A DNA stretch of 64,000 nt, from the IMG/VR virus record IMGVR_UViG_3300001533_000699; one strand, written 5' to 3'. Below are positions 17,493-54,228 of the stretch, piece by piece. Each line of letters starts with the position of its first letter. Positions within the stretch are counted from its first letter, which is position 1. This stretch comes from a virus. The position numbers and the translations under genes were made by a program. The notes beneath the pieces were generated by a model. The model was not told where the DNA came from, ran no database searches, and saw only the letters and a list, made by a program, of their open reading frames with translations.

Positions 17493-19070
17493 ATGAATAA
17501 GAACATTTTTAACACTCAACTGAATAATGTACTGCCAGCAGACACTGTCAATGACGCTGGTGGTGTTGCGTACAATATGTCTAGTGCCGCCGCTTTAGCT
17601 CAATACGCAGTTACAGGTACATTTAATACAACTTATTATGTTAATGATAAACAACACCTACAACGTGTACAAAAACTAGCTCAAGAATGTAGTTCTGAGT
17701 TTTTGGCTAAGCTTGCTGTATATGCACGGCAAGAAGCTAAGATGAAGGATATGCCAGCGTATCTATTGGCTGTTCTTGCTGCCAGAAATGAACATAAACT
17801 ATTGCGTAAGATTTTCGATAGAGTATGCGACAATAGTAAAATGTTGTTTGGTTTTGTGAGTATTATTCGTTCTGGAGTAACCGGGCGACGTTCATTCGGT
17901 ACCGCTATCAAAAAAATGATTCAATCTTGGTTGACACAACAACATAATTGGTCACTATATCTCTCTAGTGTTGGTCATAGTAACCCATCTATGGCAGATG
18001 TAATCAAAATGGTGCACCCAAAGCCAACGAACGAGTATCAAGCGGCTATGTTTTCATATATACTAGGTAAAGAGTGTGATATTAGTAAACTTCCGTTAGC
18101 TGTTAGGCAACTAATCGTATGTAATGGCAACTTTGAAGGGGATATACCAGATGTGCCTTTTCGCGTATTGACAAACTATGATTTAAGCAAAGTGCATTGG
18201 CAACGAATAGCAACACGAATGCCTTGGAATACTTTACGACAATCATTAGTGTTGTTGGGTCGTCGCGGTGTATTTGACTCACAAGATACGGTAGAAAAAA
18301 TAGCACAGCGATTGTCTAATAAAAACGAAGTACTACAGAATAATGTATTTCCTTTTGAGTTGTTGGCAACCTGGAAAGCCACAAAGGATTGTATTCCAAT
18401 CGAAATCACAAATGCGCTATACGATGCCATGGATATTGCCACACACAAAGCGCCTCAATTCAATGGTAAGACTTTGGTCGCCATAGATACTTCGGGTTCT
18501 ATGCAGTGGGCATCATTGACCGGAGCGAGTAATAAGCCTTCTATCATAAGTGTTGTTGAAGCCGCTGCTCTTATTGCGTGTTCTATTTTGCGTAAGAATA
18601 AAACAACAAAACTTATTGGATTTGATTGTGCTCAAGTATTTAATTGTTATACATCAAACGGTATTTATGTTATGGATGATATCAGAGCACATGACAGCGT
18701 TTTTACGAATATGTCAAAGATGTATTTTAATGGTGGGGGAACAGATTGTTCGTTGCCATTCAAATACTTGCTTAGTGAAAATTTGAGAGTAGACAACATT
18801 ATAGTATTGTCAGATAATCAAAGTTGGTCTGGTACATATGGTCCTGGTTCAGCTTCATGTAATGCGTGGACACAATATAAGAAGAGTAACCCTAAGACAA
18901 GGCTTATGTGTGTAGACTTAACACCAAACCAAACAACCCAAGTACCTGACAATAAGGATGTCATAAATATTGGTGGCTGGAGTGACTCGATGTATGGTGT
19001 TATGAGCCAATTCTTCAACGAACATACAGTTGTTAACTTTGTGCAGACTATTAACAATACAGAAATATAA
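17493..19070 (+). CDS. rsr: Ro60 / TROVE-domain RNA-binding protein (Rsr-like) with vWA domain
   Basis: N.AGG.AY, LAQYA.TGTF..TYY, RSG..GRRS.G, D...M.HPKP, DTSGSM MIDAS, GGGTDCS.P, SDNQSW, IGGWSD. Confidence 0.92.
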   Translation: MNKNIFNTQLNNVLPADTVNDAGGVAYNMSSAAALAQYAVTGTFNTTYYVNDKQHLQRVQKLAQECSSEFLAKLAVYARQEAKMKDMPAYLLAVLAARNEHKLLRKIFDRVCDNSKMLFGFVSIIRSGVTGRRSFGTAIKKMIQSWLTQQHNWSLYLSSVGHSNPSMADVIKMVHPKPTNEYQAAMFSYILGKECDISKLPLAVRQLIVCNGNFEGDIPDVPFRVLTNYDLSKVHWQRIATRMPWNTLRQSLVLLGRRGVFDSQDTVEKIAQRLSNKNEVLQNNVFPFELLATWKATKDCIPIEITNALYDAMDIATHKAPQFNGKTLVAIDTSGSMQWASLTGASNKPSIISVVEAAALIACSILRKNKTTKLIGFDCAQVFNCYTSNGIYVMDDIRAHDSVFTNMSKMYFNGGGTDCSLPFKYLLSENLRVDNIIVLSDNQSWSGTYGPGSASCNAWTQYKKSNPKTRLMCVDLTPNQTTQVPDNKDVINIGGWSDSMYGVMSQFFNEHTVVNFVQTINNTEI

Positions 19071-19753
19071 TGAAAAACTACTATTCATTTGCTGGTATGC
19101 AACGTGTTGGTAATCATGCAATTGTCAATTGGTGGATGAAACACTTTAGTTCGTGGTCGGTACGCAATAATATACTTGGACTGCGCTATAATGACCCAGC
19201 AGCACAAACTACAGATATCGGTAGTGATAATGTAGTACAAATTGATACATGGGAAAATTATGACCCTAATGATATCATTGTGTGTAGATTGAGCGAGCCA
19301 ATCATTGTCATTATAAGAGACCCGTATAATTGGTGGGCATCGTGGTTTCAATACACAATACCAAATCAAAATATTCAAGCCATAGACAGAGACAAAACTA
19401 TCGATTGGTATATAAGATATGTTGAATATGCGCGCAACACAAAACGTTGGATATCTTTTAATAATTGGTTTGCTGACACAGACTATAGACGTAGTTTGGA
19501 GCGTCAATATGGTCTGCAAGAATCTGACGCTGGTTTACAAGAACTAATGCGTAGTAATAATGAATTTATTGGTAATGGCAGTACCTTTGATAGAACACGT
19601 TATCACAAAAACGCACAACATATGAAGGTACTCACTAGATACCAAAAATTTTTAGCAGATGATAAATATCTTACACCATTACGCCAACATCTAGAATTGG
19701 CAGATATAGCCAGAGAATTGTTTAATATGGAACCGCCGAAAGGAATATATTGA
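19070..19753 (+). CDS. sulfotransferase-like protein
   Basis: GMQRVGNHAI (5'-PSB-like) and IRDPYNW.AS (3'-PB-like). Confidence 0.6.
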   Translation: MKNYYSFAGMQRVGNHAIVNWWMKHFSSWSVRNNILGLRYNDPAAQTTDIGSDNVVQIDTWENYDPNDIIVCRLSEPIIVIIRDPYNWWASWFQYTIPNQNIQAIDRDKTIDWYIRYVEYARNTKRWISFNNWFADTDYRRSLERQYGLQESDAGLQELMRSNNEFIGNGSTFDRTRYHKNAQHMKVLTRYQKFLADDKYLTPLRQHLELADIARELFNMEPPKGIY

Positions 19754-20833: not shown

Positions 20834-21129
20834 AACAAAAATTCAAAGATAAAATAGATGAATCAATACATGCTTTAGTCGATGATATTGAGCAGTGTTG
20901 TAAGGATGATGATAGAGACGCATTAAAAGGTGTGTTAAACTACACTATTACATCTATATTACTAGCAACATTTACAAAGCATGGAATAAGTTATTCTAAA
21001 TTTGCCGATGTTATTGGTACTCTAGAATGTTCAAAGCTAGAAATATATCGACGGGCAATAGCGTCATATGAAGACCGTTGTATACGCAACAACGGAGATA
21101 TAGAAGAGTTTATCCGCATGGGCCTGTAA
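20821..21129 (+). CDS. conserved phage hypothetical protein
   Basis: MPYIK, G.LNY.IT, G.LEC.KLE.YRR....YED.....NGD. Confidence 0.75.
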   Translation: MPYIKQKFKDKIDESIHALVDDIEQCCKDDDRDALKGVLNYTITSILLATFTKHGISYSKFADVIGTLECSKLEIYRRAIASYEDRCIRNNGDIEEFIRMGL

Positions 21130-21408
21130 GGTTTCGACGGGTTGTGAAAGTTTGTGACGGCATTCCGTGGTTCGTCTGATGGCCACGTAAAAATCAGACG
21201 AAAAAAGTAACTGGCACCTGCCATACTTTGGCTCTGTGCGCCTGAGCACAGGTTTCTACTTGTAGAAGCAGCTTAATCTTGTGCTACAACAAGAGCGTAT
21301 AAGCATTTGAGACAGTTTTGTTTGTTGTACAGCTTAACAACATACTATGAATGTAGATGTTACTTATAGAAGCAAAGCCGGACAACGGTTCAATTCCGTT
21401 CAGGTCCA
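21120..21408 (+). ncRNA. ssrA: tmRNA
   Basis: 5' GGGCCTG-TAAGGTTTCGAC; 3' T arm AACGG-TTCAATT-CCGTT and CAGGTCC-A; G3.U pair; pk1-like region then TAACT and tag ORF 21213-21245 (GTCHTLALCA*). Confidence 0.9.
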
Positions 21409-21510
21409 CTGAATCTGATAAGGTGTATAATATAGAAGAAAGCCGATATCAACAAATGGTTTGAGCTTGTTCCTTTCTTTTTGTCTTAAAAATTACATAA
21501 GGAAGTATGA

Positions 21511-26857: not shown

Positions 26858-26940
26858 GGCCGGGTGGCGAAATTGGTAAACGCATCGGTTTTAAGCACCG
26901 ACGCCCTAGCGGCTTGCGGGTTCGACTCCCGCCTCGGCTA
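26858..26940 (+). tRNA. tRNA-Leu(TAA)
   Basis: TCGGT-TTTAAGC-ACCGA; long variable arm. Confidence 0.92.
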
Positions 26941-26941
26941 C

Positions 26942-27008
26942 TGACGAATGCAGTAATGCTTACATATCATTGATTAGATTGACAAACAGCATTACATTTT
27001 TGTCGTCA
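26942..27008 (+). ncRNA. candidate minimal Y RNA (Y1)
   Basis: TGACGA/TCGTCA terminal stem, GACGAATG motif, GTAATGCT/AGCATTAC second stem; same architecture at 30144 and 54151. Confidence 0.6.
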
Positions 27009-27030
27009 ACTTTTTACTATAGGAAAACAA

Positions 27031-29394: not shown

Positions 29395-29955
29395 ATGGGG
29401 TATAACATGAAGAATAAGACTAAGCACCAAAAGTTTTATCGATGCCCACGTACAACACAAGAGCGTCGTATTAACGGTAAGCGTAGTGAATATGGCAGAG
29501 CAAAACGAAATCAATCAAATTTAGTTAATGCTTATTATGATAAGCCTACTTGCGTACAAAAGACCTGGAAAGTCAAACGTAAGCATCAATATAGAGTAGA
29601 TGGTCGTGGTAAAAAATATCAAATCACTATAAATCCTAAAGGGTTACTTAGTGATTGGTTATTGAAACAATGGTTTGATGAGCACGATATTCCGTGTCGT
29701 TTAATACCAATATACAAATTACTGCGTAGTAAGCCACATAAACAGCGTATTAAGTATGTAGAAAGATACATAGAAAAGTATATCACGCATTATGATGGAA
29801 CTGTAGAACATTATCAGCATCCAGTACATGGATATAAATACATTCAACCAAGAGAATATGTGTATAGACATCTTATTGGATATCAACTAACTTGGTGGTG
29901 TCATAAGGACATAGATATTGATAACCTACTACGTTCATTGAGTTTGGAGGTCTAG
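29395..29955 (+). CDS. basic hypothetical protein
   Basis: YR.PRTTQERR...RAKRN...L...Y.D.....K.WK..RK.QY phage motif. Confidence 0.6.
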   Translation: MGYNMKNKTKHQKFYRCPRTTQERRINGKRSEYGRAKRNQSNLVNAYYDKPTCVQKTWKVKRKHQYRVDGRGKKYQITINPKGLLSDWLLKQWFDEHDIPCRLIPIYKLLRSKPHKQRIKYVERYIEKYITHYDGTVEHYQHPVHGYKYIQPREYVYRHLIGYQLTWWCHKDIDIDNLLRSLSLEV

Positions 29956-30022
29956 TGTATGCTGGTGTGCACGGCGGCTTGAAGTACCGCAGGTCTTGAG
30001 GGTTCGATTCCCTGGGCCTCCA
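29946..30022 (+). tRNA. tRNA-Phe(GAA)
   Basis: GGAGGTC/GGCCTCC acceptor; loop TT-GAA-GT; some mismatches. Confidence 0.72.
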
Positions 30023-30023
30023 C

Positions 30024-30051
30024 TTGACAATTGTAAAGATTGTGCTATAAT
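30024..30051 (+). promoter_or_regulatory. promoter TTGACA-N16-TATAAT
   Basis: Perfect hexamers upstream of tRNA-Asp / Y RNA / tRNA-Val. Confidence 0.7.
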
Positions 30052-30067
30052 CAAAATAGAAGTACAA

Positions 30068-30142
30068 CCTCCGTTGGTCCAGTCTGGAGTGGACGCTGCC
30101 CTGTCAAGGCAGAGAGCATGGGTTCAAATCCCATACGGGGGG
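30068..30142 (+). tRNA. tRNA-Asp(GTC)
   Basis: CTGCC-CTGTCAA-GGCAG; G73. Confidence 0.9.
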
Positions 30143-30143
30143 C

Positions 30144-30277
30144 TTTGGTGAATGATGTAAGACATACATGCATTGTAAGCCGTATGTGTAGGTTCAAGTC
30201 CTACTCTCACCGCTTTATGGTGAGATAGCTTAATTGGACAGAGCGACGAAAATTAGTCTTGCTAATTAGTCACCAAA
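30144..30277 (+). ncRNA. YrlA-like Y RNA (Y2) with permuted tRNA-like domain
   Basis: TTTGGTGA/TCACCAAA and GTAAGAC/GTCTTGC terminal stems enclose T arm (30188-30204), closed acceptor hairpin TCTCACC-GCTTTAT-GGTGAGA and D arm (30228-30244). Confidence 0.78.
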
Positions 30278-30279
30278 AC

Positions 30280-30351
30280 GGGCCTATAGTACAATGGTCA
30301 GTGCATATGGTTTACACCCATAAAATGGGGGTTCGATTCCCTCTAGGCCCA
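30280..30351 (+). tRNA. tRNA-Val(TAC)
   Basis: TATGG-TTTACAC-CCATA. Confidence 0.9.
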
Positions 30352-30536
30352 CTTATGACAATGGTTTCAATGGAGAAACAGTTATGAACGACGCACTATA
30401 TATTCAATTCATTGATGAGCGCATCAAAGATGGTGAACTACTGACTGCTTTATTTCACGTTGGTATAGAGGGTATTTTACAAGAATTTGAATGTTGGTTA
30501 CAATCAAATTTCATACTAACACAGAAATAAACATAA

Positions 30537-32525: not shown

Positions 32526-33260
32526 ATGACAAAGCTGAATCAAGTGATTGCGTTGGTGAACGGTAAGAAAACCCGTGCCAAGGAAGAACTGACTAAAATA
32601 TACAAGACAGTACAAAAACCAGAGGTGTTTGCTGGTATTTCGCGTGTGTATCAACCTAGCGACGATGAAGGTGAAACTATTCCACCAGAAAAAAAGTTGC
32701 CTCTGTTCACCACTAAACAGATACTGAATTCTGTACAAACAACGCTTACAGACTTGATTGATATTGTGGCAACGCAAGACCATGGTAATACTGAAGCAAT
32801 GGCAGGAATTGTTGTTGATGGTACACTATTAGTAGATAACGTGCCAGTTACGCACTTATTGTTTTTGGAAAAACAGCTTGTAGATATCCACACTTTGATT
32901 GCTGCACTTCCAACACTGGACCCGTCAGAACATTGGATGTATGACGAAAATCGTGGGTGTTATGTTACTGAACCGACACGCACCAACCGCACAAAGAAGG
33001 TGATGCGTAATCACGTGAAGGCTGCCGCGACAGATAAGCACCCGGCACAGGTTGACGTATACACAGAAGACATAAAGGTTGGCGAATGGTCAACCGTAAA
33101 AATGGGCGGGGCACTTCCTGCTGACGAAAAGCGCGATATACTTGAGCGCGTTCGTAAGTTGCAAGACGCAGTAAAAATGGCACGCGAAGAAGCCAATTCA
33201 CATGTTGTGACGCCAATAACTATAGCACCACAGCTATTAACGTACATTATCGGAGCGTAG
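32526..33260 (+). CDS. conserved uncharacterised helical protein (244 aa)
   Basis: KLNQ.IA...G.K, F.GI.R.Y.P..D.GE..P.E, VPVT.LLFLEKQL, AT.KHPAQV...TED..VG.W, K.ARE.AN; a pattern I recall from bacterial and phage hypotheticals. Confidence 0.85.
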   Translation: MTKLNQVIALVNGKKTRAKEELTKIYKTVQKPEVFAGISRVYQPSDDEGETIPPEKKLPLFTTKQILNSVQTTLTDLIDIVATQDHGNTEAMAGIVVDGTLLVDNVPVTHLLFLEKQLVDIHTLIAALPTLDPSEHWMYDENRGCYVTEPTRTNRTKKVMRNHVKAAATDKHPAQVDVYTEDIKVGEWSTVKMGGALPADEKRDILERVRKLQDAVKMAREEANSHVVTPITIAPQLLTYIIGA

Positions 33261-33411
33261 TCTTAGATTTAGTTTTAGTCTGAATCCTATATACTGTCAG
33301 TGTTGGTTCGAACCCAGCTCCCCTCACTTACATATAATTAGAGGGGGTAGCCCAATTGGTAGAGGCAGGTAAGGTGTTTTAGCTTCAGATTATCGCTCTA
33401 ATCTAAACTAC
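33257..33411 (+). ncRNA. circularly permuted tRNA mimic on a long stem (module A)
   Basis: T arm GTTGG-TTCGAAC-CCAGC, acceptor TCCCCTC/GAGGGGG closed by a loop, D arm GCC-CAATTGGTAGA-GGC; outer stems TAGTCTGAA/TTCAGATTA and TTAGATT/AATCTAA. Confidence 0.75.
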
Positions 33412-33414
33412 TAT

Positions 33415-33569
33415 CGTGTTGTTTAATCAAGTTCATTGATGCATTATTGGAAGATGCTAGTTCGATTCTAGCCCCGACATCTTTAGTAATTTAATGTCGG
33501 GTAGCACAAAGGTAGTGTGGCCACTATAAGTATGACATCAATGATTAAACGGATATCGTAAACAACGTG
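33415..33569 (+). ncRNA. circularly permuted tRNA mimic on a long stem (module B)
   Basis: T arm GCTAG-TTCGATT-CTAGC, acceptor CCCGACA/TGTCGGG closed by a loop, D arm GCAC-AAAGGTA-GTGT; outer stems CATTGATG/CATCAATG and GTTGTTTA/TAAACAAC. Confidence 0.75.
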
Positions 33570-33840: not shown

Positions 33841-34668
33841 ATGAAGAAATACGTTTTATGCATACCGTCAGGCGGTTTTACTGATACCTTGACGCAAATT
33901 CAACGCTCATGGCATTATTGTCGGGCTCACAACCGCACACTTGTTGTAGACACTATGTGTAGTTCCTGTATGCGTGCTCAATTTAGTACGTATCTTAATG
34001 TAGTCGGTGATGTGGAAGTAATTGGTGAAATAACTAAAGAATTGGTTGAACATCTAAACGAACACGGGCAGGATGTTTATGCAGTTACTGAAGCTAGTTT
34101 TGACCATAATCAGAAGTTTGATGAATATTGTTTAGTAGAACGTACCAGGGGTGGCATGTGGTGGTTTAGCCAACAACAAATTCAAGCTTTTGGTGCATTT
34201 GCTGATAATCTACGCATAGACCCTTTAGTGTCTAAGTATATTCAACAACAACTTTGTAAATTACCGTCAGTATACGACGCTATTCATGTTCGTAATACCG
34301 ACTATCAAACAGATTATAGGTCGTTTTTTAATAAAGTTTTGCCTCAACTAAAAACCGACCATGTCTTGGTATGCTCCGATGATTATGATTGCCTACAATA
34401 CGCCAAGGAATTTTTTCCACAAACGATATTGCAAGTAATAAACCTGACTCCAAACCCAGACAAACCTCGTCATAAAATGATGAATGTAGATTATCATAAA
34501 AGAAATTTGGATTTATTATGTGACTTATTTGCTATGGCAAAATCTCAAAGTTTTTTCTATACTCAGTGTCACAATAATAAATGGAACAAGGGTTTTGCGG
34601 GCTTTAGCATGTTGACCAAGTGCTTACACGATAATCCCAATATTACAAGTAAGATACTACAAGGGTAA
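33841..34668 (+). CDS. NodZ/O-fucosyltransferase-like GT-B enzyme
   Basis: GG..D.L, AIHVRNTD, VCSDD, DLF. Confidence 0.7.
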   Translation: MKKYVLCIPSGGFTDTLTQIQRSWHYCRAHNRTLVVDTMCSSCMRAQFSTYLNVVGDVEVIGEITKELVEHLNEHGQDVYAVTEASFDHNQKFDEYCLVERTRGGMWWFSQQQIQAFGAFADNLRIDPLVSKYIQQQLCKLPSVYDAIHVRNTDYQTDYRSFFNKVLPQLKTDHVLVCSDDYDCLQYAKEFFPQTILQVINLTPNPDKPRHKMMNVDYHKRNLDLLCDLFAMAKSQSFFYTQCHNNKWNKGFAGFSMLTKCLHDNPNITSKILQG

Positions 34669-34673
34669 ACTAC

Positions 34674-35291
34674 ATGAAACTATATACTCATGTGACTGAT
34701 AGTCATAGCAAGATGTTTGAACAATGGTTAAAACCAGGGGCTGAACGAGAATTTGAGTTGTGTGTAGGTACGTCCAAGCAGTATGGCCGTGGGCATTGGG
34801 ACGATGCAGAATGGGGCAAAAACACACGCAATAAAGCCAAGACCATGTTAGATGCAGTATCACACAATCTTGGTGATGTTGTAGTATGGTCTGATTGTGA
34901 TATACAGATTTTAAGACCAATCAAAGATAGGCTATTAGAAATACTGGGCGACCATGATATTGCCGTCAGCCATAACGATAAACACAGCGCATGCTCTGGT
35001 TTTTATATAGTTAAATGTAGTATGGATACACACTCTTTCTTTTATGAAATATATCAAGACGATATTTTTACCAAACACAGAAATGGCTTAACAGACCAAG
35101 CTGTATTTTGTAAGCTGTTACCAACACTCAGCTATACAATGTTACCGCCAGATGAATTTTGGTGTAATAGATTTCCATTACAATTAGATAAAATTAGAGT
35201 TCATCACGCTAATTGGATAAAAGGTGTTGACAATAAAGTGTTAGCATTAGAACATCTATACAAGCAATGGAGCACCCAATGTGTAGAGTAG
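34674..35291 (+). CDS. nucleotide-diphospho-sugar transferase (GT77-like)
   Basis: WSDCDI, CSGFY, DQ..F, HHANW..G...K. Confidence 0.75.
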   Translation: MKLYTHVTDSHSKMFEQWLKPGAEREFELCVGTSKQYGRGHWDDAEWGKNTRNKAKTMLDAVSHNLGDVVVWSDCDIQILRPIKDRLLEILGDHDIAVSHNDKHSACSGFYIVKCSMDTHSFFYEIYQDDIFTKHRNGLTDQAVFCKLLPTLSYTMLPPDEFWCNRFPLQLDKIRVHHANWIKGVDNKVLALEHLYKQWSTQCVE

Positions 35292-36199
35292 TTATTACTG
35301 GTGGAACTGGATTTTTAGGTCGATATGTAACACAAGAATGTCATAAACACGATGAATTTACACACATAATGCCTTTGGGAAGCAAAGACTATGATTTGCG
35401 ACATAGCGAAGACATCAAAAAGATGTTTTATGACTGTTGTCCTGATGTTATAATTCATCTTGCTGCTCAGGTTGGTGGTATTGGCTTAAACAAAGCTGAA
35501 CCAGCAAGGCTGTTTTATGACAACGCCATTATGGGAATAGAGTTATTGCACCATGCGTGGATGGGTGAAGTAAAGAAGCTGGTAAATGTTGGCACTGTAT
35601 GCGCATATCCTAAATACACACGTACTCCATTCAAAGAGAGTGATATATGGAATGGGTATCCTGAAGAAACAAATGCGCCATATGGTCTAGCAAAAAAGAT
35701 GTTATTAGTACAAGGGCAAGCATATCGAGAGCAGTATGGGTTTAACTCCATCTATTTACTGCCTACTAATCTATATGGCCCTGGTGATAATTTTGAACCA
35801 AATAGTTCGCACGTTATTCCAGCGCTTATTAAAAAGATTTACGACGCAATTAAGCAGGGAAGGGATGCTGTTGAAGTATGGGGTACTGGAGAGGCGTCAC
35901 GAGATTTTCTATATGTTGAGGATTGCGCTAAAGGTATAGTTGAAGCAACCTTGAAATACGAGTCAGGCGACCCTGTTAATCTTGGTAGTGGTAAGACTAT
36001 GCGTATTTCTACGCTTGTGTATACAATAGCAGAACTCATGCATTACAACGGTAGTATTGTTTTTAACGCCGACAAACCAGAAGGTCAACCAGCTAGATGT
36101 TTAAATACTTCGCGTGCTAAGACATTTGGGTTTGAAGCTACAACTGATATACATACCGGCTTAGAAAAAACTATACTTTATTATCTTAGGAGGATATAG
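35267..36199 (+). CDS. fcl: GDP-L-fucose synthase
   Basis: TGGTGFLG, HLAAQVGGIG.N, C.YPK, YGLAKK, NLYGPGDNF, SHVIPALI, WGTG...R.FLYV.D. Confidence 0.93.
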   Translation: MEHPMCRVVITGGTGFLGRYVTQECHKHDEFTHIMPLGSKDYDLRHSEDIKKMFYDCCPDVIIHLAAQVGGIGLNKAEPARLFYDNAIMGIELLHHAWMGEVKKLVNVGTVCAYPKYTRTPFKESDIWNGYPEETNAPYGLAKKMLLVQGQAYREQYGFNSIYLLPTNLYGPGDNFEPNSSHVIPALIKKIYDAIKQGRDAVEVWGTGEASRDFLYVEDCAKGIVEATLKYESGDPVNLGSGKTMRISTLVYTIAELMHYNGSIVFNADKPEGQPARCLNTSRAKTFGFEATTDIHTGLEKTILYYLRRI

Positions 36200-36201
36200 A
36201 T

Positions 36202-37101
36202 ATGTTGCTAATTGGGCTTAGAGGCCCCAACGACACTAATTTTGGTGATATAAATATGCGTCGTGTTATTGAAAATGCCATTCATAATACCACCAACGAA
36301 GTTACATATTCTCGTAGAAAGCCGTTCGCTAGAGCAGTAGATTTAGTAATTGACGCCAGCGGCTATGCATATTTTTCTTCTATGGGTCAAGGTAATTTTA
36401 TCAGTGCATTAGAATGTCAGGCCACTACGGGTAACTCTCCTTGGTATTTTATACCCCAAGCATGGGGGCCATTTAAACCAATAGATAAGTCACGTACAGT
36501 ATCTATTACGAGCGGTAATTATGTTTGGGCTCGTGATACAACGTCTTATAGATATTTACGAGATTTGGGTATTCCGAATGTGGTTGCACCAGACATAACG
36601 TTTGCTGACGATACTGACTTTTGTGACAACAAAGAGGATTACGTTGCCATATGTCCAAACACACGTATATCAAATGTAAATTATGTTACGTGGTTACACT
36701 CATTATGTCGCCTGTTTCCTAATTATAAAATTATAGTTGGTGAAAAAAACGACATAGGATTTGCAAAACAGTTTGGTGCAGTTACATCAGATGTAGACGA
36801 CGTTAAAGAAGTATTACGACACGCGTCTTTAGTTATAAGTTCACGTTATCACATATTGCTTTATGCTCTTATGTACGCCACACCAGTTATGTGTGTTGGA
36901 TGGTCTCATAAGTATGATGAACTATTCACAGATATTGGTATCAATAAGTGGATTATTAGCGTAGAAACTACACAAAAAGATATTGATAATTTATATTGTC
37001 GTTCAGGTGAGCAAATAGACAAAATAAAAGCTAGTGTTGGTATATATAAGAAACAAGCAACAAACCTTCTCAATAGCGTGGTGTCTATAAAATTATGTTA
37101 G
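36202..37101 (+). CDS. polysaccharide pyruvyltransferase family (WcaK-like)
   Basis: N.GD, PQAWGPF, ARD..S, APD..F, SRYH....AL, GWSHKY. Confidence 0.82.
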   Translation: MLLIGLRGPNDTNFGDINMRRVIENAIHNTTNEVTYSRRKPFARAVDLVIDASGYAYFSSMGQGNFISALECQATTGNSPWYFIPQAWGPFKPIDKSRTVSITSGNYVWARDTTSYRYLRDLGIPNVVAPDITFADDTDFCDNKEDYVAICPNTRISNVNYVTWLHSLCRLFPNYKIIVGEKNDIGFAKQFGAVTSDVDDVKEVLRHASLVISSRYHILLYALMYATPVMCVGWSHKYDELFTDIGINKWIISVETTQKDIDNLYCRSGEQIDKIKASVGIYKKQATNLLNSVVSIKLC

Positions 37102-38207
37102 ACCTAAAACTATGTACATCATGCGGTGCGTGTGCTGGCGTTTGTCCAACCAACGCAATATCTATGGTTCGTGATAGTGTATCTCACAAACCAAGTATCG
37201 ATAAAGATATGTGCGTAGGGTGTGGTCGATGTCAAGAGGTTTGTCCAGGCCCAGGTTTTGATTATGAATACTACCATAAGCAAATTTTTGGAAGTATTCC
37301 AAACCACAAACTAGGTCATTATATCAATGTGTATGCTGGACACACAACAGATGCACAGATTCTTGCGAGTAGTCAAAGCGGTGGTTTTGTATCAACTCTA
37401 TTATGCTCATTATTAGAACAAGGAATCATACAAGGGGCAATTGTCTCAGCAAGACTGCCTAATGCGCCATTAGAGCCAGTGAGTTTTGTAGCGCGAACAA
37501 GAACAACAATATTGAGTGCTGTAGGCAGTATATATAATTCTGTGCCTACTGCTGAACTAATTAAGAATTTACTACAATTACCGGGTAAGTACGTGTTTGT
37601 GGGATTACCATGCCACATACACGCGATGCGTAAAGCTGAGCAACTATACCCACAACTCAAAAACGCTATACAGTGTTATATAGGACTGCATTGCCTGGGG
37701 GTGTTTACGTATAGTATATATGACCGCATATTCAGCATGTGTGGATTATCTCAAAAAGACATTAAGGAGTTTAGGCATAGAGATAAACGGTCTGGTATGC
37801 AACATGGTGGCGCATATATAGTTGACAACAACGATAACGTACATTTAATAGACCCCTATAAGTCTAGACTGCATAAACGAGAGCAATACACCAATCCTAG
37901 ATGTCTCGTGTGTATAGATAAAACTAATCAATTTTGTGATATATCATGCGGTGATTGTAGAATGCCGCGAGCGCATGCAGAATTCAAGAGGGAAAACTAC
38001 GACCCAAACGACGGTCTGTCAGAAATTGTTGTAAGAACACCTAGAGGTCAAAACACCATAGATAGATTACGTAACTTCTTGTATAAAACGTACACAGCCG
38101 ACGAAGTATTAAAATCTATATATGGAGGAATCAATAAAATAGATAGATTCGAAGAATGGTGTGATTTATTAGATATGTATCCTCTATACACCAATAAGGA
38201 TAACTGA
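37095..38207 (+). CDS. F420-reducing hydrogenase beta-subunit-like (FrhB/FdhB family) Fe-S protein
   Basis: Two CxxCxxCxxxCP motifs, SQSGG, GS.Y, VGLPCH, GL.C.G, C..C.D, DIS.GD; this family commonly pairs with pyruvyltransferases in polysaccharide loci. Confidence 0.85.
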   Translation: MLDLKLCTSCGACAGVCPTNAISMVRDSVSHKPSIDKDMCVGCGRCQEVCPGPGFDYEYYHKQIFGSIPNHKLGHYINVYAGHTTDAQILASSQSGGFVSTLLCSLLEQGIIQGAIVSARLPNAPLEPVSFVARTRTTILSAVGSIYNSVPTAELIKNLLQLPGKYVFVGLPCHIHAMRKAEQLYPQLKNAIQCYIGLHCLGVFTYSIYDRIFSMCGLSQKDIKEFRHRDKRSGMQHGGAYIVDNNDNVHLIDPYKSRLHKREQYTNPRCLVCIDKTNQFCDISCGDCRMPRAHAEFKRENYDPNDGLSEIVVRTPRGQNTIDRLRNFLYKTYTADEVLKSIYGGINKIDRFEEWCDLLDMYPLYTNKDN

Positions 38208-39178
38208 TGCAGCACGATATTCCACTAGTACACTTAGATAGTTGTAGGTGGTTAAAGCATAATCCTATGCCAGAACACACTAAAACGCTATATGCTACAC
38301 CTACACGTGATGATTTAGCAGTATGTATATGCTATTTTTCCTATTGCAGATATAAAAAGACATTACGCAATATATTGACTGTATTACAAGACCTACGTGA
38401 AGCAAATATTCCACACTATGTAATAGAGTTGCTATACCCAAACCAAACTAGTGTGGTACCCAACCCACACAAAATAGTTCATGCTGAAACAGTAATGTTC
38501 CATAAAGAAAATCTACACAATGTACTAGAGCCACACATACCATCAAAATACTCTAAGTTGTTATTCTTAGATGCTGATGTACGATTTACAATCCCAGACT
38601 GGTATGACCAAACTTCACATATTCTTGATAACGCAACAGTTATGCAACCAATGGGTGTATCTAGCTGGATATCATTTTGTAAACACACGGTCGCATACGG
38701 CGCGCTACAATGCCCAAATCAATTACTTGGGCTAGTAGAATATCATCCTGGTTTTGCGATTGGTATAACTAGGAGCGTGTTCCATGCTATTGGTGGTTTA
38801 TATGATAGAACAGTACTTGGTGCCGGTGATTCGCTATTTTGGGACAGTATGATACGCGCAACGGGGCATCCTGGGATTCGCTCTAAATACATGACGCATG
38901 TTGATTATGCTTTACAGGGTGATTATTTCAGTGAATATAAAGATAGATGTACCCAAAATCAGAGTAGTATCAAAATTGGTTGTTTATCCCACAATATAGC
39001 AACACATATGCCACATGGAGCAAGAGAAAACCGTCGTTATAGCGATAGGTCTAATGGTTGGAACATAGATGATTACGATATCTATAAAAACTCTGATGGT
39101 GTATATGAGTGGAGTGATAAAAAGTATGATAAATTAGCAAAAGAGTATTTTATCAATAGAAAAGAAGACGAAGATTAG
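38207..39178 (+). CDS. GT-A fold glycosyltransferase-like protein
   Basis: FHKE.L.N, FLDAD, PG.A, LG.GD, H..HG; similar to 42185. Confidence 0.65.
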   Translation: MQHDIPLVHLDSCRWLKHNPMPEHTKTLYATPTRDDLAVCICYFSYCRYKKTLRNILTVLQDLREANIPHYVIELLYPNQTSVVPNPHKIVHAETVMFHKENLHNVLEPHIPSKYSKLLFLDADVRFTIPDWYDQTSHILDNATVMQPMGVSSWISFCKHTVAYGALQCPNQLLGLVEYHPGFAIGITRSVFHAIGGLYDRTVLGAGDSLFWDSMIRATGHPGIRSKYMTHVDYALQGDYFSEYKDRCTQNQSSIKIGCLSHNIATHMPHGARENRRYSDRSNGWNIDDYDIYKNSDGVYEWSDKKYDKLAKEYFINRKEDED

Positions 39179-39180
39179 TC

Positions 39181-39954
39181 ATGGTTGTATTTCTTATACC
39201 GGTGCGACACCCAAATAGCGCGATAGATTATAATACGACATGGCAGCTTTTAATAGATTCTTTGCGTAATATTTATCGACAAACTGACGGCGATTGGCAC
39301 GCTATAATCACGGCAAATAAAATTCTGCATATGCCGCATGATTTACCGCTAGGCAATATCACGTTTTTAACATACTCTGGGGAAGAGTGTGGTCATACTC
39401 TGAAAAAATGGAATCAACAAAAGTTCCTAAAGCACAACAAAGACAAAGCAAATAAAAGGATGTGCGGAGTCAAATACGCTAAAGAGAATCTGAATCCAAA
39501 ATGGTATTTTATGATGGATGCAGACGACTATATATCTAATGATTTAGTGGAAACCATACACACCTTCCCTGCTAATATTAAATGTGTTACAATTGAGTGT
39601 GGGGTAGTTGTAAATACTATGAACGGTGTATGTACTTTAAATAATGACTTTAATAGATGCTGTGGTACATCTATTGGTTTCAAATCACAGTTCTTACACT
39701 TACATCTACATAATCGACAACTCATGTGGGCGTTATTGGGCAAACACATATTTTGTCAAAGTGGTGCGCATATGTGGAAACGACGTAAATTAGAGGATAA
39801 ACCATACGCAACATATATGATTCATGACGATAACCACGGATTACATTTATGGGGTGCTAAGAATTTGGTCGATACACACCATCAGCCAGTTTCCAACGTA
39901 GACAAAAAACGTCTGGGAATTTTAGGGTTGACAAAAAGAAAAATCCAGCTATAA
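39181..39954 (+). CDS. GT2-like glycosyltransferase
   Basis: FLIP, S...QTD, DK..K, MMDADD, CGTS. Confidence 0.65.
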   Translation: MVVFLIPVRHPNSAIDYNTTWQLLIDSLRNIYRQTDGDWHAIITANKILHMPHDLPLGNITFLTYSGEECGHTLKKWNQQKFLKHNKDKANKRMCGVKYAKENLNPKWYFMMDADDYISNDLVETIHTFPANIKCVTIECGVVVNTMNGVCTLNNDFNRCCGTSIGFKSQFLHLHLHNRQLMWALLGKHIFCQSGAHMWKRRKLEDKPYATYMIHDDNHGLHLWGAKNLVDTHHQPVSNVDKKRLGILGLTKRKIQL

Positions 39955-39955
39955 T
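39928..39955 (+). promoter_or_regulatory. promoter TTGACA-N16-TATAAT
   Basis: Perfect hexamers about 300 nt upstream of ssb. Confidence 0.7.
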
Positions 39956-40260
39956 ACAACTAATAATGACGAACAGATGTTCGCAAACATGGTCTTTAAT
40001 TATGAGTAGTGGCCTCGATATGAGGGTTGCCTGGTAACTTGCTATTACCAATCCGATGGTACTTATGTATCTATGTGACACGGGGGCAACGGTGCTATAC
40101 AAGCTGTACACCTATAGTTTTATTTATTTTAAAAAAGTTTTATGCGACGGCGCTTGCAAACCGCCCACAACATACAGCAATGTAGTTGTACACAACAAGC
40201 AGGACGTAATCTGCGTCCAAACATATTTTTCACTCAAAATAAACACAAAGGAGAAGCTGA

Positions 40261-40686
40261 ATGGCTGGAAGTTTTAACAAGGTCATTATCATGGGTAATC
40301 TAACCCGTGATGTAGAGTTGCGTTATATTCCAAGCGGTACTGCTGTAACAGATTTGGGTATCGCCGTGAACGAAAAGCGTAAAAACACCAACGGGGATGT
40401 TATTGAAGAGACGACATTTGTTGACGTAACTCTCTGGGGGCGTAACGCTGAGGTAGCCTCTAAGTATCTTAGTAAGGGCTCCCCAGTTCTTATTGAGGGT
40501 CGCCTACGTCTTGACCAGTGGGAAAACGCTGATGGAGAAAAGCGACAAAAGATGAAGGTTGTGTGTGACCGCATGCAAATGGTAGGCGGCAACCCAAACA
40601 CAAGCTCAGAAACAGCTAAGAGTTCAGGAACAAAGCAAGAACAAAGTTCTGAACCAGTAGATACGGATGATGACATCCCATTCTAA
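40261..40686 (+). CDS. ssb: single-stranded DNA-binding protein
   Basis: [29 protein letters not shown], acidic DDDIPF tail. Confidence 0.96.
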
Positions 40687-41416
40687 GATAGCGTATTTGT
40701 TTTTGGTATATAGCGATGTATACCATCCACAGGTGTGGGAAAAGTATTTCACTGGCGAATCAGACAACGTAAAAATATGTTGTCATGCCGCCAACAGAAA
40801 GCAAACTACCACACCATTTATACGCAACAATCTGATTCCATACTGGGTTTCTACTAAGTGGGCCGGGCTAGGTTTAGTCTTGGCCCACTTAGAGTTAATT
40901 CGTTATGCTTTACGTGACCCAAGTGTACAAAGGCTTGTGTTGTGTTCAGAAAGCTGTATACCGATTAAGTCATATAAAAAAACTCGCCAACTGTTATTCG
41001 ACACAGACGCTACTTGGTTACGCACTACGACACAATATACCTCAAGAATGTCTCGCGTTACTACAATACCAAAACAACACCACAGACATCATTCTCAATG
41101 GGTAGCTCTAACTAGAGAACACGCCTCTATGTTAGTTCGTTTCAACTTTCTAGGAGATTTTATCAATTGTGTAGTACCAGACGAACATTATGTTGGGTCA
41201 GTATTAGTACATCTTGGCGAAGCAGAACGCATATTACAAAAAAGCCAAACATATGCACAATGGTATAAACTGTCACCGGTTCAGTTCACACCAAGAGAAC
41301 ACACACAAATATCTACTCAATTGATACAAAACTTGAAAAAATCCGATGCTTTATTTGCTAGAAAATTTCCCGCAAATAGTTGCATAAACCAACATTGGAA
41401 GGATATCATAGAGTGA
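40667..41416 (+). CDS. core-2/I-branching (GT14-like) glycosyltransferase
   Basis: KIAYLFL, T.W, SESCIP, SQW..L.R, PDEHY, LFARKF. Confidence 0.8.
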
Positions 41417-42246
41417 GTTTTATACAGAAAGTCAAAACCAGAGTTCATAATGCCAACGAATTCGCTAAATTTAAGAATTTAGTAACTGCATACAGCCTAT
41501 GTATCAAACACGATATTATAATACCAAAGCTGTATTTTATTCTTTCACAAGAAGAAGCTACTGCAACATCATACGAAGATTTATATCATCGTTTACCTAA
41601 TCTGTTCACCATAAGACCAAGCATATTTCTAAATAATAAGTATGATTATATGTTGCGTGATGACGGTCTTACGCTGCATAATTTTGCAACCGGTCAAGAC
41701 GACCAACCACAAAACATATATAAGACCCAATGCGATGCAATGCAAAGCATTGATAATTCTTCTTTATTGTTTGAAGAGTTCCCATTAGTAAATCATGTGT
41801 TACAATACCCCACACACTATCGTTTACACACGTTTTACGGTGGTGTAGCACTAATACAAATAGTTAAAGTCGATGGAAAAATGGGTTGGTGCAATAACCA
41901 GGGTAAGATATTGGCGACCACCAATGACAACACATCCTTACAGTCTCACGACATACCACAGCATAAGGCTATGGAATCGTTAGTGAATGCTGGGCGAAAA
42001 CTATCCCTAGCCACAAAACAACCATATATTAGAATCGACTTTGTGTTATCTACTCACGGCCCTATGTTTAGAAGCTTTGCGTGTATCCCAGGAGATGTTC
42101 GTTCACAAACATTCGCAACATTCTATCAACAAATAGACGAACAACTTGATAATGAGTGGATAGCAGCAGAAGAAAGAATAAAGAATGCCGATAATCCTAC
42201 CACAAAACCAACAATTAGTACAGACACGCCAGATGACAACGCCTAA
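41380..42246 (+). CDS. ATP-grasp-like protein (TupA-like, degenerate)
   Basis: LLFEEF, YR.H.F.G, YIRIDF, PG motifs. Confidence 0.5.
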   Translation: MHKPTLEGYHRVSFIQKVKTRVHNANEFAKFKNLVTAYSLCIKHDIIIPKLYFILSQEEATATSYEDLYHRLPNLFTIRPSIFLNNKYDYMLRDDGLTLHNFATGQDDQPQNIYKTQCDAMQSIDNSSLLFEEFPLVNHVLQYPTHYRLHTFYGGVALIQIVKVDGKMGWCNNQGKILATTNDNTSLQSHDIPQHKAMESLVNAGRKLSLATKQPYIRIDFVLSTHGPMFRSFACIPGDVRSQTFATFYQQIDEQLDNEWIAAEERIKNADNPTTKPTISTDTPDDNA

Positions 42247-46714: not shown

Positions 46715-46868
46715 GTTGTTCAAGAAGTTCTATGCACTTAAAAACTTCTACTCTCGTTGTGGTTCATTGTGGTCGGAAGGAAAATTCATTAGCACTATTG
46801 GTTTTGTCAGTGCTGATACAATTAAAAGATACATTCAAGAGCAAAAAGAGTTTGATGAGGACGAGTGA
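46659..46868 (+). pseudogene. tnpA: IS200-type Y1 transposase C-terminal remnant
   Basis: PTVAPSDIVRTFKSIS...LWSEG.F.ST.G.VS..TI..YI..Q; HUH half missing. Confidence 0.8.
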
Positions 46869-54081: not shown

Positions 54082-54149
54082 GCCGATGCGAACGGGTTCG
54101 GGTCTGGTCTTGTAAACCGGACTACTGGGGTCAGCACCCAGCTTCGGCT
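54082..54149 (+). tRNA. atypical tRNA-Thr(TGT)
   Basis: TCTGGT-CTTGTAA-ACCGGA; GCCGATG/CTTCGGC; non-canonical T loop GTCAGCA and tiny D arm. Confidence 0.55.
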
Positions 54150-54150
54150 C

Positions 54151-54222
54151 TGACGAATGCGGTGATGCATACATAAACCAATGACATCGTTTATACGAAG
54201 TGCATCACATCACTAGTCGTCG
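54151..54222 (+). ncRNA. candidate minimal Y RNA (Y3)
   Basis: TGACGA/TCGTCG stem, GACGAATG motif, GTGATGCA/TGCATCAC stem, ATAAAC/GTTTAT apical stem. Confidence 0.62.
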
Positions 54223-54228
54223 TTTTTA

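What the first reader, a model, noticed from the sequence alone, without database searches (positions are those of the whole stretch)
30144..30277. YrlA-like RNA between tRNA-Asp and tRNA-Val
Seen: a Ro-type terminal stem (GGTGAATG, one change from GNCGAANG) encloses T arm GTAGG-TTCAAGT-CCTAC, a perfect 7-bp acceptor hairpin closed by GCTTTAT, a canonical D arm, and a 3-bp CGT/ACG stem where the anticodon stem would be. Established: this is the layout of YrlA tRNA-mimic Y RNAs. A tRNA finder would probably report it as a pseudo-tRNA or two fragments.
Basis: partly seen in the sequence, partly recalled or inferred. Interest (0 to 1): 0.75.

Follow-up and report, generated by a model that had tools for sequence, protein, structure and literature searches.

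The report
Phage Y RNA shaped like tRNA
The 136 bases between two tRNA genes of this uncultured large phage encode a small RNA built like a tRNA turned inside out on a conserved "handle"; it is very probably the partner of the Ro60 ring protein that the same phage encodes, a known kind of RNA-protein pair that standard annotation misses here.

Summary
It fills the gap between tRNA-Asp and tRNA-Val to the base.

The reading as a YrlA-type Y RNA is supported:
- Rfam's YrlA model matches full length at 39.7 bits. That is below its cut-off of 69, but above the scores I got in a Bxz1-type mycobacteriophage (a group with published YrlA RNAs), Mx1 and Gilson (30.8-36.1).
- The same phage encodes a full Ro60/Rsr protein (17493-19070, same strand).
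- A model built from three orthologues finds 41 relatives in other Ro60-encoding viral contigs. Across 29 of them all six helices covary (97% of cells paired; slid controls 41-46%).
- The alternative tRNA-like fold has no such support.

Extras:
- The window holds two short handle-only Y-like RNAs and two further tRNA-like modules, the latter probably partners of a DUF7873 protein.
- Y-like RNAs often abut tRNAs in such phages.
- The acceptor loop starts like this phage's own tRNA trailers (N-C-U). That predicts cleavage into two pieces, as shown for Mycobacterium smegmatis YrlA.

Phage Y RNAs have been known since 2014, so this is a new member of a known kind. This scan has reported similar RNAs in other phages.

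The parts
30144..30279 (+). The YrlA-type Y RNA gene (the finding). It fills the whole spacer between tRNA-Asp and tRNA-Val.
   Evidence: Rfam YrlA 39.7 bits, model positions 1-114. Own model R1 148.6 bits. Fold z = -4.16.
30144..30151 (+). 5' strand of the terminal 'handle' stem P1. It pairs with 30270-30277 and overlaps the GGUGAAUG motif (30147-30154).
   Evidence: Sequence. Helix 1 of the family alignment is 98.8% paired, and all 6 of its pairs show compensatory change.
30270..30277 (+). 3' strand of handle stem P1, preceded by the conserved UUAG (family consensus CUUGUC).
30157..30163 (+). 5' strand of stem P2 (GUAAGAC). It pairs with GUCUUGC at 30256-30262.
   Evidence: helix 2: 7 pairs, all with compensatory change, 95.4% paired.
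30164..30180 (+). V region, beginning AUACAUGC. The family consensus is YUACAUG, which is the 'YUAY' that opens the V loop in published YrlA RNAs.
   Evidence: Alignment consensus. PMC4201824.
30181..30183 (+). CGU, the 3-bp remnant of an anticodon stem. It pairs with ACG at 30246-30248. It is followed by the 4-nt variable loop AUGU, whose last U can form the Levitt pair with A15.
   Evidence: Helix 3: 3 pairs, all covarying, 93.3% paired. Sequence.
30188..30204 (+). T arm GUAGG-UUCAAGU-CCUAC.
   Evidence: helix 4, 100% paired.
30205..30225 (+). Acceptor-like 7-bp hairpin UCUCACC / GGUGAGA. Its loop GCUUUAU (30212-30218) starts G-C-U, like this phage's tRNA 3' trailers.
   Evidence: helix 5, 96.4% paired; trailer comparison.
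30226..30244 (+). U8-A9 followed by the D arm GCUU-AAUUGGACA-GAGC (A14, A15, G18, G19 and A21 present).
   Evidence: helix 6, 100% paired.
30024..30051 (+). Consensus sigma-70 promoter (TTGACA, 16 nt, TG-n-TATAAT). It could drive a tRNA-Asp / Y RNA / tRNA-Val transcript.
   Evidence: 12 of 12 hexamer matches with an extended -10.
30068..30143 (+). tRNA-Asp (GUC). Its 3' end abuts the Y RNA.
30280..30352 (+). tRNA-Val (UAC). Its 5' end (the RNase P site) abuts the Y RNA's 3' end.
17493..19070 (+). Phage Ro60/Rsr orthologue (525 aa), the presumed protein partner. It lies 11 kb upstream on the same strand.
   Evidence: Pfam vWA_Ro60 3.3e-18 and TROVE 9.7e-10. Full-length match to D. radiodurans Rsr 2NVO at 1.4e-18, plus matches to Xenopus, an RO60-named chain (9nen) and Thermus-phage Ro60 structures.
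26940..27012 (+). Short Y-like RNA with the same handle (GACGAAUG ... UUGUCGUC) and no tRNA-like module. It starts at the 3' end of tRNA-Leu(UAA).
   Evidence: R1 37.7 bits; fold.
54149..54226 (+). Second short Y-like RNA with the same handle (GACGAAUG ... UAGUCGUC). It ends 3 nt before tRNA-Met.
   Evidence: R1 34.7 bits; fold.

Best explanation
Window 30144-30279 encodes a YrlA-type Y RNA of a large uncultured phage.

Structure. The two ends pair into a 'handle'. It consists of stem P1 carrying GGUGAAUG, an internal loop, and the 7-bp stem P2. This is the presumed binding site for the phage's own Ro60 ring protein (17493-19070). The middle folds as a tRNA without an anticodon arm: a 3-bp stem remnant, a variable loop, a T arm, a closed 7-bp acceptor stem and a D arm. 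The usual tertiary partners are present (U8:A14, A15:U48, G18/G19 with the T loop).

Biogenesis (inferred). The RNA is transcribed from the consensus promoter at 30024 together with tRNA-Asp and tRNA-Val. The tRNA-processing enzymes then free it. 3' processing of tRNA-Asp makes its 5' end, and RNase P cutting at tRNA-Val makes its 3' end.

Further inference. The acceptor loop is itself treated as a tRNA 3' end plus trailer and as a tRNA 5' leader. The mature RNA would then be two pieces held together by base pairing, as shown for M. smegmatis YrlA.

Function (by analogy, not shown here). The RNA gates or tethers Ro60 to a host exoribonuclease such as PNPase. This would redirect RNA decay or quality control during infection.
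For: Shown here:
- Full-length YrlA model match at 39.7 bits, E = 1.6e-7 in the local search and 3e-5 over the whole window.
- The fold gives this layout with z = -4.16.
- A Ro60 orthologue with TROVE and vWA_Ro60 domains lies on the same strand.
- Orthologues sit at the syntenic place, after tRNA-Phe, in a related 125-kb phage contig. Their T and acceptor stems carry compensatory changes.
- Model R1 finds 41 hits in 51 other Ro60-encoding viral loci, all on the Ro60 strand.
- In a 29-sequence alignment 97.4% of cells pair, against 41-46% for slid controls. 30 of 32 pairs have changes on both sides.
- The family consensus keeps GAAUGC, YUACAU, GGUUCGAnUCC, UAGCUCAnnUGGUAGAGC and CUUGUC.
- 19 of 51 Y-like hits lie within 20 nt of a tRNA. 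Several are sandwiched between two tRNAs, including one in the cultured phage Mx1.
- 24 of 25 tRNAs in the window have N73-C-U trailers, and the acceptor loop starts G-C-U. In phages whose tRNAs encode CCA, the loops start N-CCA.

From the literature:
- YrlA definition, Rsr binding, and RNase P cleavage plus CCA addition of the 7-bp-stem YrlA of M. smegmatis (PMC4201824).
- Thermus phage Ro60 binds phage Y-like RNAs and host PNPase (PMC12135203).
Against: - The score is below Rfam's gathering cut-off (39.7 against 69).
- The motif is GGUGAAUG, not GNCGAANG. The change is compensated in the stem, U:A in place of C:G.
- The gene lies 11 kb from Ro60, outside the 4 kb used by Chen et al. In the nearest relatives a different Y-like RNA sits directly behind Ro60.
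- No expression, binding, modification or cleavage data exist for this RNA.
- Alignment A3 was fitted to the model, which inflates the pairing counts somewhat.
- Nearly all genes of this region are on one strand, so strand agreement with Ro60 is weak evidence.
- The match between loop and tRNA trailer holds for about 10 of 15 open loops, not all of them.
Confidence: 0.8

Rival explanations
1. It is a functional tRNA mimic, but Ro60 is not its partner. It might work with another protein, as is suspected for the tandem modules behind the DUF7873 gene. Or it might act as a decoy or sensor for host enzymes and defence nucleases that recognise tRNA.
For: - It lies 11 kb from Ro60 and sits in the tRNA array.
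- Two other tRNA-like modules in the window (33268-33555) lie directly behind a DUF7873 gene and lack the CGAAUG/UUGUCG handle.
- Phage tRNA arrays are reported as counter-defence tools (titles and abstracts listed).
Against: - It carries the same handle as the short Y-like RNAs and as the RNAs found directly beside Ro60 in relatives and in other Ro60-encoding phages.
- That handle is the published Ro60-binding motif (PMC4201824).
- It has no conserved protein-coding neighbour of its own.
Confidence: 0.1
2. It is a decaying remnant of a tandem tRNA duplication, about one and a half tRNA copies, with no function of its own.
For: - The tRNA model gives a weak hit at 30147-30212 (23 bits).
- The 5' strand of the handle (GGUGA) resembles the 5' acceptor strand (GGUGAGA).
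Against: - All six helices are kept by compensatory changes across phages whose Ro60 proteins are only 33-56% identical.
- Unpaired motifs are conserved.
- The would-be anticodon stem has 3 non-standard pairs out of 5.
- ARAGORN makes no call.
Confidence: 0.03
3. It is a real, unusual tRNA, for example tRNA-Thr(UGU) in the alternative fold, or a circularly permuted tRNA gene that is rearranged after transcription.
For: - The alternative fold offers a loop AUUGUAA with UGU in the anticodon position, and no tRNA-Thr is called in the window.
- The phage encodes two RNA ligases.
Against: - 23 bits is below the tRNA cut-off of 29.
- The alternative acceptor pairing is 52% paired across the family, the same as slid controls.
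- The 'anticodon' is not conserved in orthologues: AUUUUAA in L004, and absent in the second copy.
- Joining the ends would give a long irregular stem, not an anticodon arm.
Confidence: 0.02
4. It is only a structured spacer that guides processing or stability of the flanking tRNAs.
For: It fills the spacer exactly and abuts both tRNAs.
Against: - The same RNA family also occurs far from any tRNA, directly beside Ro60 genes and in tandem arrays of up to five.
- Spacers do not need tRNA tertiary-contact nucleotides or a Ro60 motif.
Confidence: 0.03

Closest known systems
YrlA of Mycobacterium smegmatis and of Bxz1-type mycobacteriophages such as ET08 (Chen et al. 2014, PMC4201824)
   Same: - A handle with a GNCGAA-type motif.
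- A V region opening with YUAY.
- T arm, closed acceptor-like stem and D arm in that order.
- A 7-bp acceptor stem, the feature that makes M. smegmatis YrlA an RNase P substrate.
- Encoded on the same strand as a Ro60 gene, and in a phage.
   Different: - It lies 11 kb from Ro60, not within 4 kb.
- It is set between two tRNA genes to the base.
- The motif reads GGUGAAUG.
- The V region is 17 nt with a conserved UACAUGC.
- Several paralogues are scattered through one tRNA array.
Salmonella Typhimurium YrlA (Rfam RF02553; structure preprint 10.1101/312249, listed and not read)
   Same: The overall six-helix architecture and the tRNA tertiary-contact nucleotides. The model aligns end to end.
   Different: - 39.7 bits, below the cut-off of 69.
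- A 14-nt insertion in the V region.
- An acceptor stem of 7 bp where the model has 6.
- No rtcBA operon context.
Thermus phage phiLo Ro60 with Yrl1 and Yrl2 (PMC12135203)
   Same: A phage-encoded Ro60 with several phage-encoded Y-like RNAs that carry a CGAA-type motif in a stem-bulge-stem handle. This is the best experimental precedent for function: binding of Ro60 and of host PNPase.
   Different: The phiLo RNAs lie just upstream of the Ro60 gene. That paper does not mention YrlA or a tRNA-like domain (0 occurrences of either term).
Bas63 (Felix O1-type) gp130, a Ro60-like protein that counters the ppl defence (preprint PMC11482910)
   Same: A Ro60-like gene next to a phage tRNA array. The authors guess that some of the 'tRNA genes' are Y RNAs.
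   Different: No RNA was identified there. Here the protein is a sequence-recognisable Ro60 and the RNA is defined base by base.

Membership tests
YrlA-type bacterial/phage Y RNA (Chen et al. 2014; Rfam RF02553) | GNCGAAN0-1G motif near the 5' end | tested here: inconclusive
   GGUGAAUG at 30147-30154 matches 7 of 8 positions. The C is replaced by U, and its partner changes G to A, so the pair is kept. In the family this pair reads CG 16, GC 4, UA 4, AU 3. Orthologue L004_B and both short RNAs of the window have the exact motif.
YrlA-type bacterial/phage Y RNA (Chen et al. 2014; Rfam RF02553) | T-arm-like stem-loop, then a closed acceptor-like stem-loop, then a D-arm-like stem-loop, in that order | tested here: met
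   30188-30204, 30205-30225 and 30228-30244. Helices 4-6 are 96-100% paired with compensatory changes.
YrlA-type bacterial/phage Y RNA (Chen et al. 2014; Rfam RF02553) | tRNA tertiary-contact nucleotides, including a Levitt pair G15:C48 or A15:U48 | tested here: met
   Read from the sequence: U8, A14, A15 with U48 (the last base of the variable loop AUGU), G18 G19, A21, U54 U55 C56 A58 and G53:C61.
YrlA-type bacterial/phage Y RNA (Chen et al. 2014; Rfam RF02553) | V region upstream of the T arm, opening with YUAY | tested here: inconclusive
   The window has AUAC (first base A, not Y). Relatives have UUAC or CUAC, and the family consensus is UACAU.
YrlA-type bacterial/phage Y RNA (Chen et al. 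2014; Rfam RF02553) | Encoded within 4 kb of a Ro60 orthologue, on the same strand | tested here: not met
   Same strand, but 11.07 kb downstream (Ro60 ends at 19070, the RNA starts at 30144). This is a search criterion of the paper more than a property of the RNA. Mx1 shows the same distance.
YrlA-type bacterial/phage Y RNA (Chen et al. 2014; Rfam RF02553) | Score at or above Rfam's gathering cut-off (69 bits) | tested here: not met
   39.7 bits. No phage relative tested reached the cut-off. The best matches in LinStu, Mx1 and Gilson were 36.1, 32 and 30.8 bits. The cut-off therefore seems to exclude phage members in general.
YrlA-type bacterial/phage Y RNA (Chen et al. 2014; Rfam RF02553) | Bound by Ro60/Rsr; carries tRNA-type modifications (D, pseudouridine) | not testable with these tools
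   Needs immunoprecipitation or gel shift, and modification mapping.
tRNA (RF00005) | Cloverleaf with a 5-bp anticodon stem and a 7-nt loop; score at or above 29 bits | tested here: not met
   23 bits at 30147-30212, with 3 of 5 anticodon-stem pairs non-standard. No ARAGORN call. The alternative acceptor pairing is not conserved.
Circularly permuted tRNA gene or two-piece (permuted) tmRNA | After joining or cutting, a complete anticodon arm (tRNA), or a tag reading frame with pseudoknots (tmRNA) | tested here: not met
   The ends form a long irregular stem with internal loops and no anticodon arm. ARAGORN, which detects permuted tmRNA, reports only the standard tmRNA at 21120-21409.

The most novel reading that the evidence does not exclude
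In large Ro60-encoding phages, YrlA-type RNAs are built into tRNA operons and are matured entirely by the tRNA-processing machinery.

- That includes a cut inside the closed acceptor loop. The working RNA would then be a two-piece tRNA mimic with a free acceptor end completed to CCA, clamped by the Ro60 handle.
- The loop co-evolves with each phage's own style of tRNA 3' trailer: N-C-U in this clade, N-CCA in phages that encode CCA.
- Such an end could be charged, or could serve as bait for host enzymes or defence nucleases that target tRNA. The bait would be coupled to Ro60 and to the phage RNA ligases.
Probability: 0.35. Interest if true: 0.65.

Novelty: new member of a known kind. Interest (0 to 1): 0.5.

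Why it matters
Ro60 with Y RNA is a conserved RNA-surveillance particle whose role in phage infection is barely studied.

- **A defined test case.** This finding gives, base by base, the likely RNA partners of one phage Ro60.
- **An annotation gap.** The curated YrlA cut-off misses this whole class of phage RNAs. They are also unannotated in the GenBank records of the cultured phages Mx1 and Gilson.
- **A testable maturation route.** The flanking tRNAs define both ends of the RNA. The acceptor loop looks like a tRNA end, which makes the two-piece maturation seen once in M. smegmatis a prediction that can be tested in many phages.
- **Practical use.** It points to where to look for the RNA partner of the Ro60-like protein of phage Bas63, which a preprint reports to counter the ppl defence.

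Tried and rejected
- **Close relatives in cultured phages.** blastn of 29900-30400 hit only tRNA-Asp and tRNA-Val look-alikes.
- **Neighbouring glycosyltransferase as a probe in viral contigs.** No relative found.
- **Exact 24-mer of the T arm plus acceptor strand in viral contigs.** No hit.
- **Whole-genome tools.** No genome is held for this window, and the metagenome records could not be searched whole.
- **Handle pattern CATGTAWG-N5-10-CATTCRCCA.** It gave the capped 80 viral loci. Apart from L008, which is the L001/L004 contig again, only two weak matches on the opposite strand (L039 and L065, 30.2 bits) came from them, so most are probably chance.
- **Stricter 21-mer in metagenome contigs.** 17 loci, of which only L099 is a new strong orthologue.
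- **Looking beside Ro60.** I searched for a Y RNA directly behind the window's Ro60 gene, where relatives have one. An ORF (19070-19753) starts at the Ro60 stop codon instead.
- **Readings rejected.** Permuted tRNA, permuted tmRNA, the tRNA-Thr alternative fold and a decayed tRNA duplicate, for the reasons given under the rival explanations.
- **Papers not reached.** Two reviews on bacterial Y RNAs (PMC10870794, PMC6047535) are not held in the library. My statement that tRNA-array embedding is undescribed therefore rests on a handful of text searches only.

Full report
**What is there.** The window is a stretch of a large phage-like genome. It holds 25 tRNA genes and a tmRNA gene, all on the + strand. 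The finding lies between tRNA-Asp (30068-30143) and tRNA-Val (30280-30352) and fills that spacer exactly.

- GGTGAATG at 30147-30154.
- A terminal stem, 30144-30151 with 30270-30277.
- A 7-bp stem, GTAAGAC (30157-30163) with GTCTTGC (30256-30262).
- CGT (30181-30183) pairing with ACG (30246-30248).
- A 4-nt variable loop.
- The T arm GTAGG-TTCAAGT-CCTAC (30188-30204).
- A perfect 7-bp hairpin TCTCACC/GGTGAGA closed by GCTTTAT (30205-30225).
- TA, then the D arm GCTT-AATTGGACA-GAGC (30228-30244).

The minimum-free-energy fold reproduces this layout at -43 kcal/mol. Its z-score is -4.16 and none of 200 shuffles folds as well. A script that looks on both strands of the window for a T arm followed directly by a 7-bp hairpin finds three sites only. 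All three are on the + strand and all are followed by TA and a D arm. ARAGORN calls nothing here.

- Infernal with Rfam's YrlA model (RF02553) aligns the region end to end (model positions 1-114) at 39.7 bits. E is 1.6e-7 in a local search and 3e-5 over the whole window.
- That is below Rfam's gathering score of 69, so it does not appear at the default threshold.
- The cut-off seems too strict for phages. None of seven related Ro60-encoding viral loci reached it.
- In cultured phages the best YrlA matches were 36.1 bits (mycobacteriophage LinStu, just upstream of its Ro gene; a Bxz1-type phage, the group from which Chen et al. aligned phage ET08), 32 bits (Myxococcus phage Mx1) and 30.8 bits (Streptomyces phage Gilson).
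- The only competing model is tRNA at 30147-30212. It scores 23 bits, below its cut-off of 29, and 3 of its 5 anticodon-stem pairs are non-standard.

**The protein partner is in the window.**
- The ORF at 17493-19070 (+, 525 aa) matches Pfam vWA_Ro60 (3.3e-18) and TROVE (9.7e-10).
- It aligns over its full length with D. radiodurans Rsr (2NVO, 1.4e-18). It also matches an RO60-named chain (9nen), Xenopus Ro60 and Thermus-phage Ro60 structures.
- It has hundreds of Ro60 homologues in metagenomes, many on contigs of 120-320 kb.
- The window also encodes two RNA ligases, at 9389-10510 and 59588-60691.

**Relatives and covariation.**
- Contigs that carry Ro60 proteins 48-56% identical to this one share the window's gene order: RNA ligase, rII-like genes, Ro60, dUTPase, tmRNA, tRNA array.
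- One of them (L004) has two orthologues of the finding just after tRNA-Phe. The handle, V motif and D arm are nearly the same. The T stem differs by compensatory changes (GTAGG/CCTAC against GCGAG/CTCGT), as does the acceptor stem (TCTCACC/GGTGAGA against CCGTGCC/GGTGCGG). One copy has the exact GGCGAATG.
- A covariance model built from these three sequences (R1) found one more strong orthologue in a metagenome contig (L099, 91 bits).
- R1 also found 41 hits in 51 other Ro60-encoding viral loci. All are on the Ro60 strand. Many lie directly beside the Ro60 gene, and some form tandem sets of up to five.
- In the model-based alignment of 29 sequences, 97.4% of cells form standard pairs, against 41-46% when partners are slid by 1-3 columns. 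30 of 32 pairs show changes on both sides, and each of the six helices is 93-100% paired. The alignment is fitted to the model, which favours the structure, but the margin is large.
- The unpaired consensus keeps GAAUGC, YUACAU, GGUUCGAnUCC, UAGCUCAnnUGGUAGAGC and CUUGUC. These are the handle motif, the YUAY opening of the V loop, and the T and D arms that Chen et al. describe.
That is no better than its slid controls.

**Context in the window.** R1 and Rfam also pick up four more elements.
- Two are short RNAs with the same handle and no tRNA-like module. One is at 26940-27012, starting at the 3' end of tRNA-Leu. The other is at 54149-54226, ending 3 nt before tRNA-Met. Both carry GACGAAUG ... 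U(U/A)GUCGUC. They resemble YrlB-type partners.
- Two are tandem tRNA-like modules at 33268-33396 and 33418-33555 (Rfam YrlA 18.8 and 33.5 bits).
- The tandem modules lack the CGAAUG/UUGUCG handle. They lie directly behind an ORF that is a full-length DUF7873 protein (9.7e-96).
I therefore do not count these two as Ro60 partners.

**How it is probably made.**
- A perfect sigma-70 promoter (TTGACA, 16 nt, TGnTATAAT) sits at 30024-30051, just upstream of tRNA-Asp.
- The RNA's first paired base comes 1-2 nt after the tRNA-Asp trailer begins. Its last base is the one before the RNase P site of tRNA-Val. The enzymes that mature the two tRNAs would therefore release it.
- This placement recurs. 19 of 51 Y-like hits lie within 20 nt of a tRNA, and several sit exactly between two tRNAs. 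That includes the cultured phage Mx1, where the RNA is also about 11.6 kb from the Ro60 gene. None of these RNAs is annotated in the GenBank records I opened.

**The acceptor loop looks like a tRNA end.**
- In the window, 24 of 25 tRNAs are followed by C-U after the discriminator base.
- The acceptor loop of the finding starts G-C-U. The loops of the two DUF7873-side modules start A-C-U and U-C-U.
- The nearest relatives have the same trailer style and the same loop start (L004, L099).
- In phages whose tRNAs encode CCA (L132, L151, L146), the loops start N-CCA.
- Of about 15 loops of 6 nt or more in loci with a recognisable trailer style, about 10 follow that style. Shorter loops (GAAA, UUCG and the like) look simply closed.
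- Chen et al. showed that M. smegmatis YrlA, which also has a 7-bp acceptor stem, is cut by RNase P and receives CCA in vivo. Both halves stay bound to Rsr.
- By analogy I predict cleavage 5' of G30219, and trimming plus CCA addition after G30212. This is inference and was not tested.

**What it probably does.** No tool here can show binding.
- By homology and by the shared handle, the RNA most likely binds the phage Ro60.
- In D. radiodurans and Salmonella, Y RNA tethers Rsr to PNPase (PMC4201824).
- A Thermus phage Ro60 binds two phage Y-like RNAs and host PNPase in vitro (PMC12135203).
- A preprint reports that a Ro60-like protein of phage Bas63 counters the ppl defence. Its authors guess that Y RNAs hide among that phage's tRNA genes (PMC11482910).
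- The role of the tRNA-like module remains open.

**Novelty.** Phage-encoded YrlA-like RNAs next to Ro60 have been known since 2014; 22 phages are listed in PMC4201824. The kind is therefore known.

Particular to this case:
- Precise insertion between two tRNAs.
- The distance from Ro60.
- Several dispersed paralogues.
- A score below the curated cut-off.
- The match between the acceptor loop and the phage's tRNA trailers.

I found no paper describing the last point or the tRNA sandwich. My literature reach was limited, and two reviews were not available. This scan has reported similar Y-like RNAs in tRNA arrays of other phages. First-stage notes on this same genome list the other elements I found independently.

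**Verdict.** This is a new member of a known kind, of moderate interest.

Noticed in passing
window 33257-33569 (modules at 33268-33396 and 33418-33555) and ORF 32526-33260: Two tandem tRNA-like modules (T arm, 7-bp closed acceptor stem, D arm) lie directly behind a full-length DUF7873 gene (Pfam 9.7e-96). They lack the CGAAUG/UUGUCG handle, so they probably belong to a different RNA-protein pair from Ro60 and its Y RNA.
   Followed up: partly
window, all tRNA genes (for example 30142-30145 and 30351-30354): 24 of 25 tRNAs are followed by C-U after the discriminator base, and only one encodes CCA. The related contigs L004 (15 of 15) and L099 (5 of 5) do the same. This uniform partial-CCA trailer may be a clade-specific 3'-processing signal.
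   Followed up: partly
window 26940-27012 and 54149-54226: Two short handle-only Y-like RNAs (GACGAAUG ... UUGUCGUC or UAGUCGUC). One starts at the 3' end of tRNA-Leu, and the other ends 3 nt before tRNA-Met.
   Followed up: partly
L001 11695-11830 and L002 11686-11820: The closest relatives carry a Y-like RNA (GGCAAAUG handle) directly downstream of their Ro60 gene. In the window a 227-aa ORF (19070-19753) starts at the Ro60 stop codon instead.
   Followed up: partly
L005 18075-18222: A Y-like RNA whose 5' part matches the finding's orthologue appears to have a tRNA-Leu(CAA) gene (18149-18219) nested where the acceptor and D part should be. It is also preceded by a tRNA-Phe-like gene that ARAGORN missed.
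   Followed up: no
L004 7388-7454 (= L001 18107-18173): A short Y-like RNA sits just behind a sigma-70-type promoter (TTGACA ... TATAAT) and 4 nt before tRNA-Asn. It would therefore be a primary transcript start, not a processed 5' end.
   Followed up: no
L155 248-377 (Myxococcus phage Mx1, OR576727.2) and L156 2909-3050 and 4106-4239 (Streptomyces phage Gilson, NC_048742.1): Unannotated YrlA-like RNAs occur in cultured phages. In Mx1 the RNA is sandwiched between two tRNAs about 11.6 kb from the Ro60 gene. In Gilson one starts 2 nt after tRNA-Ile.
   Followed up: partly
window 21120-21411: A phage-encoded tmRNA (108.8 bits) with a short predicted tag, GTCHTLALCA. Related phages have tmRNA at the same place with quite different tags.
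   Followed up: no
window 46865-48070: A TnpB/IS605 OrfB-type gene (OrfB_IS605, Cas12f1-like TNB, HTH) lies inside the phage genome. A relative (L002 8471-9739) has one just upstream of its Ro60 gene.
   Followed up: no
window 33841-44259: A long run of sugar and polysaccharide-type genes lies within the tRNA region of a phage. It includes glycosyltransferases, an NAD epimerase/dehydratase, a polysaccharide pyruvyl transferase, an FrhB/FdhB-like iron-sulfur protein and a TupA-like ATP-grasp protein.
   Followed up: no
L132 2882-2947: A Pistol ribozyme match above Rfam's cut-off (42.5 bits against 34.5) in a 190-kb Ro60-encoding viral contig.
   Followed up: no
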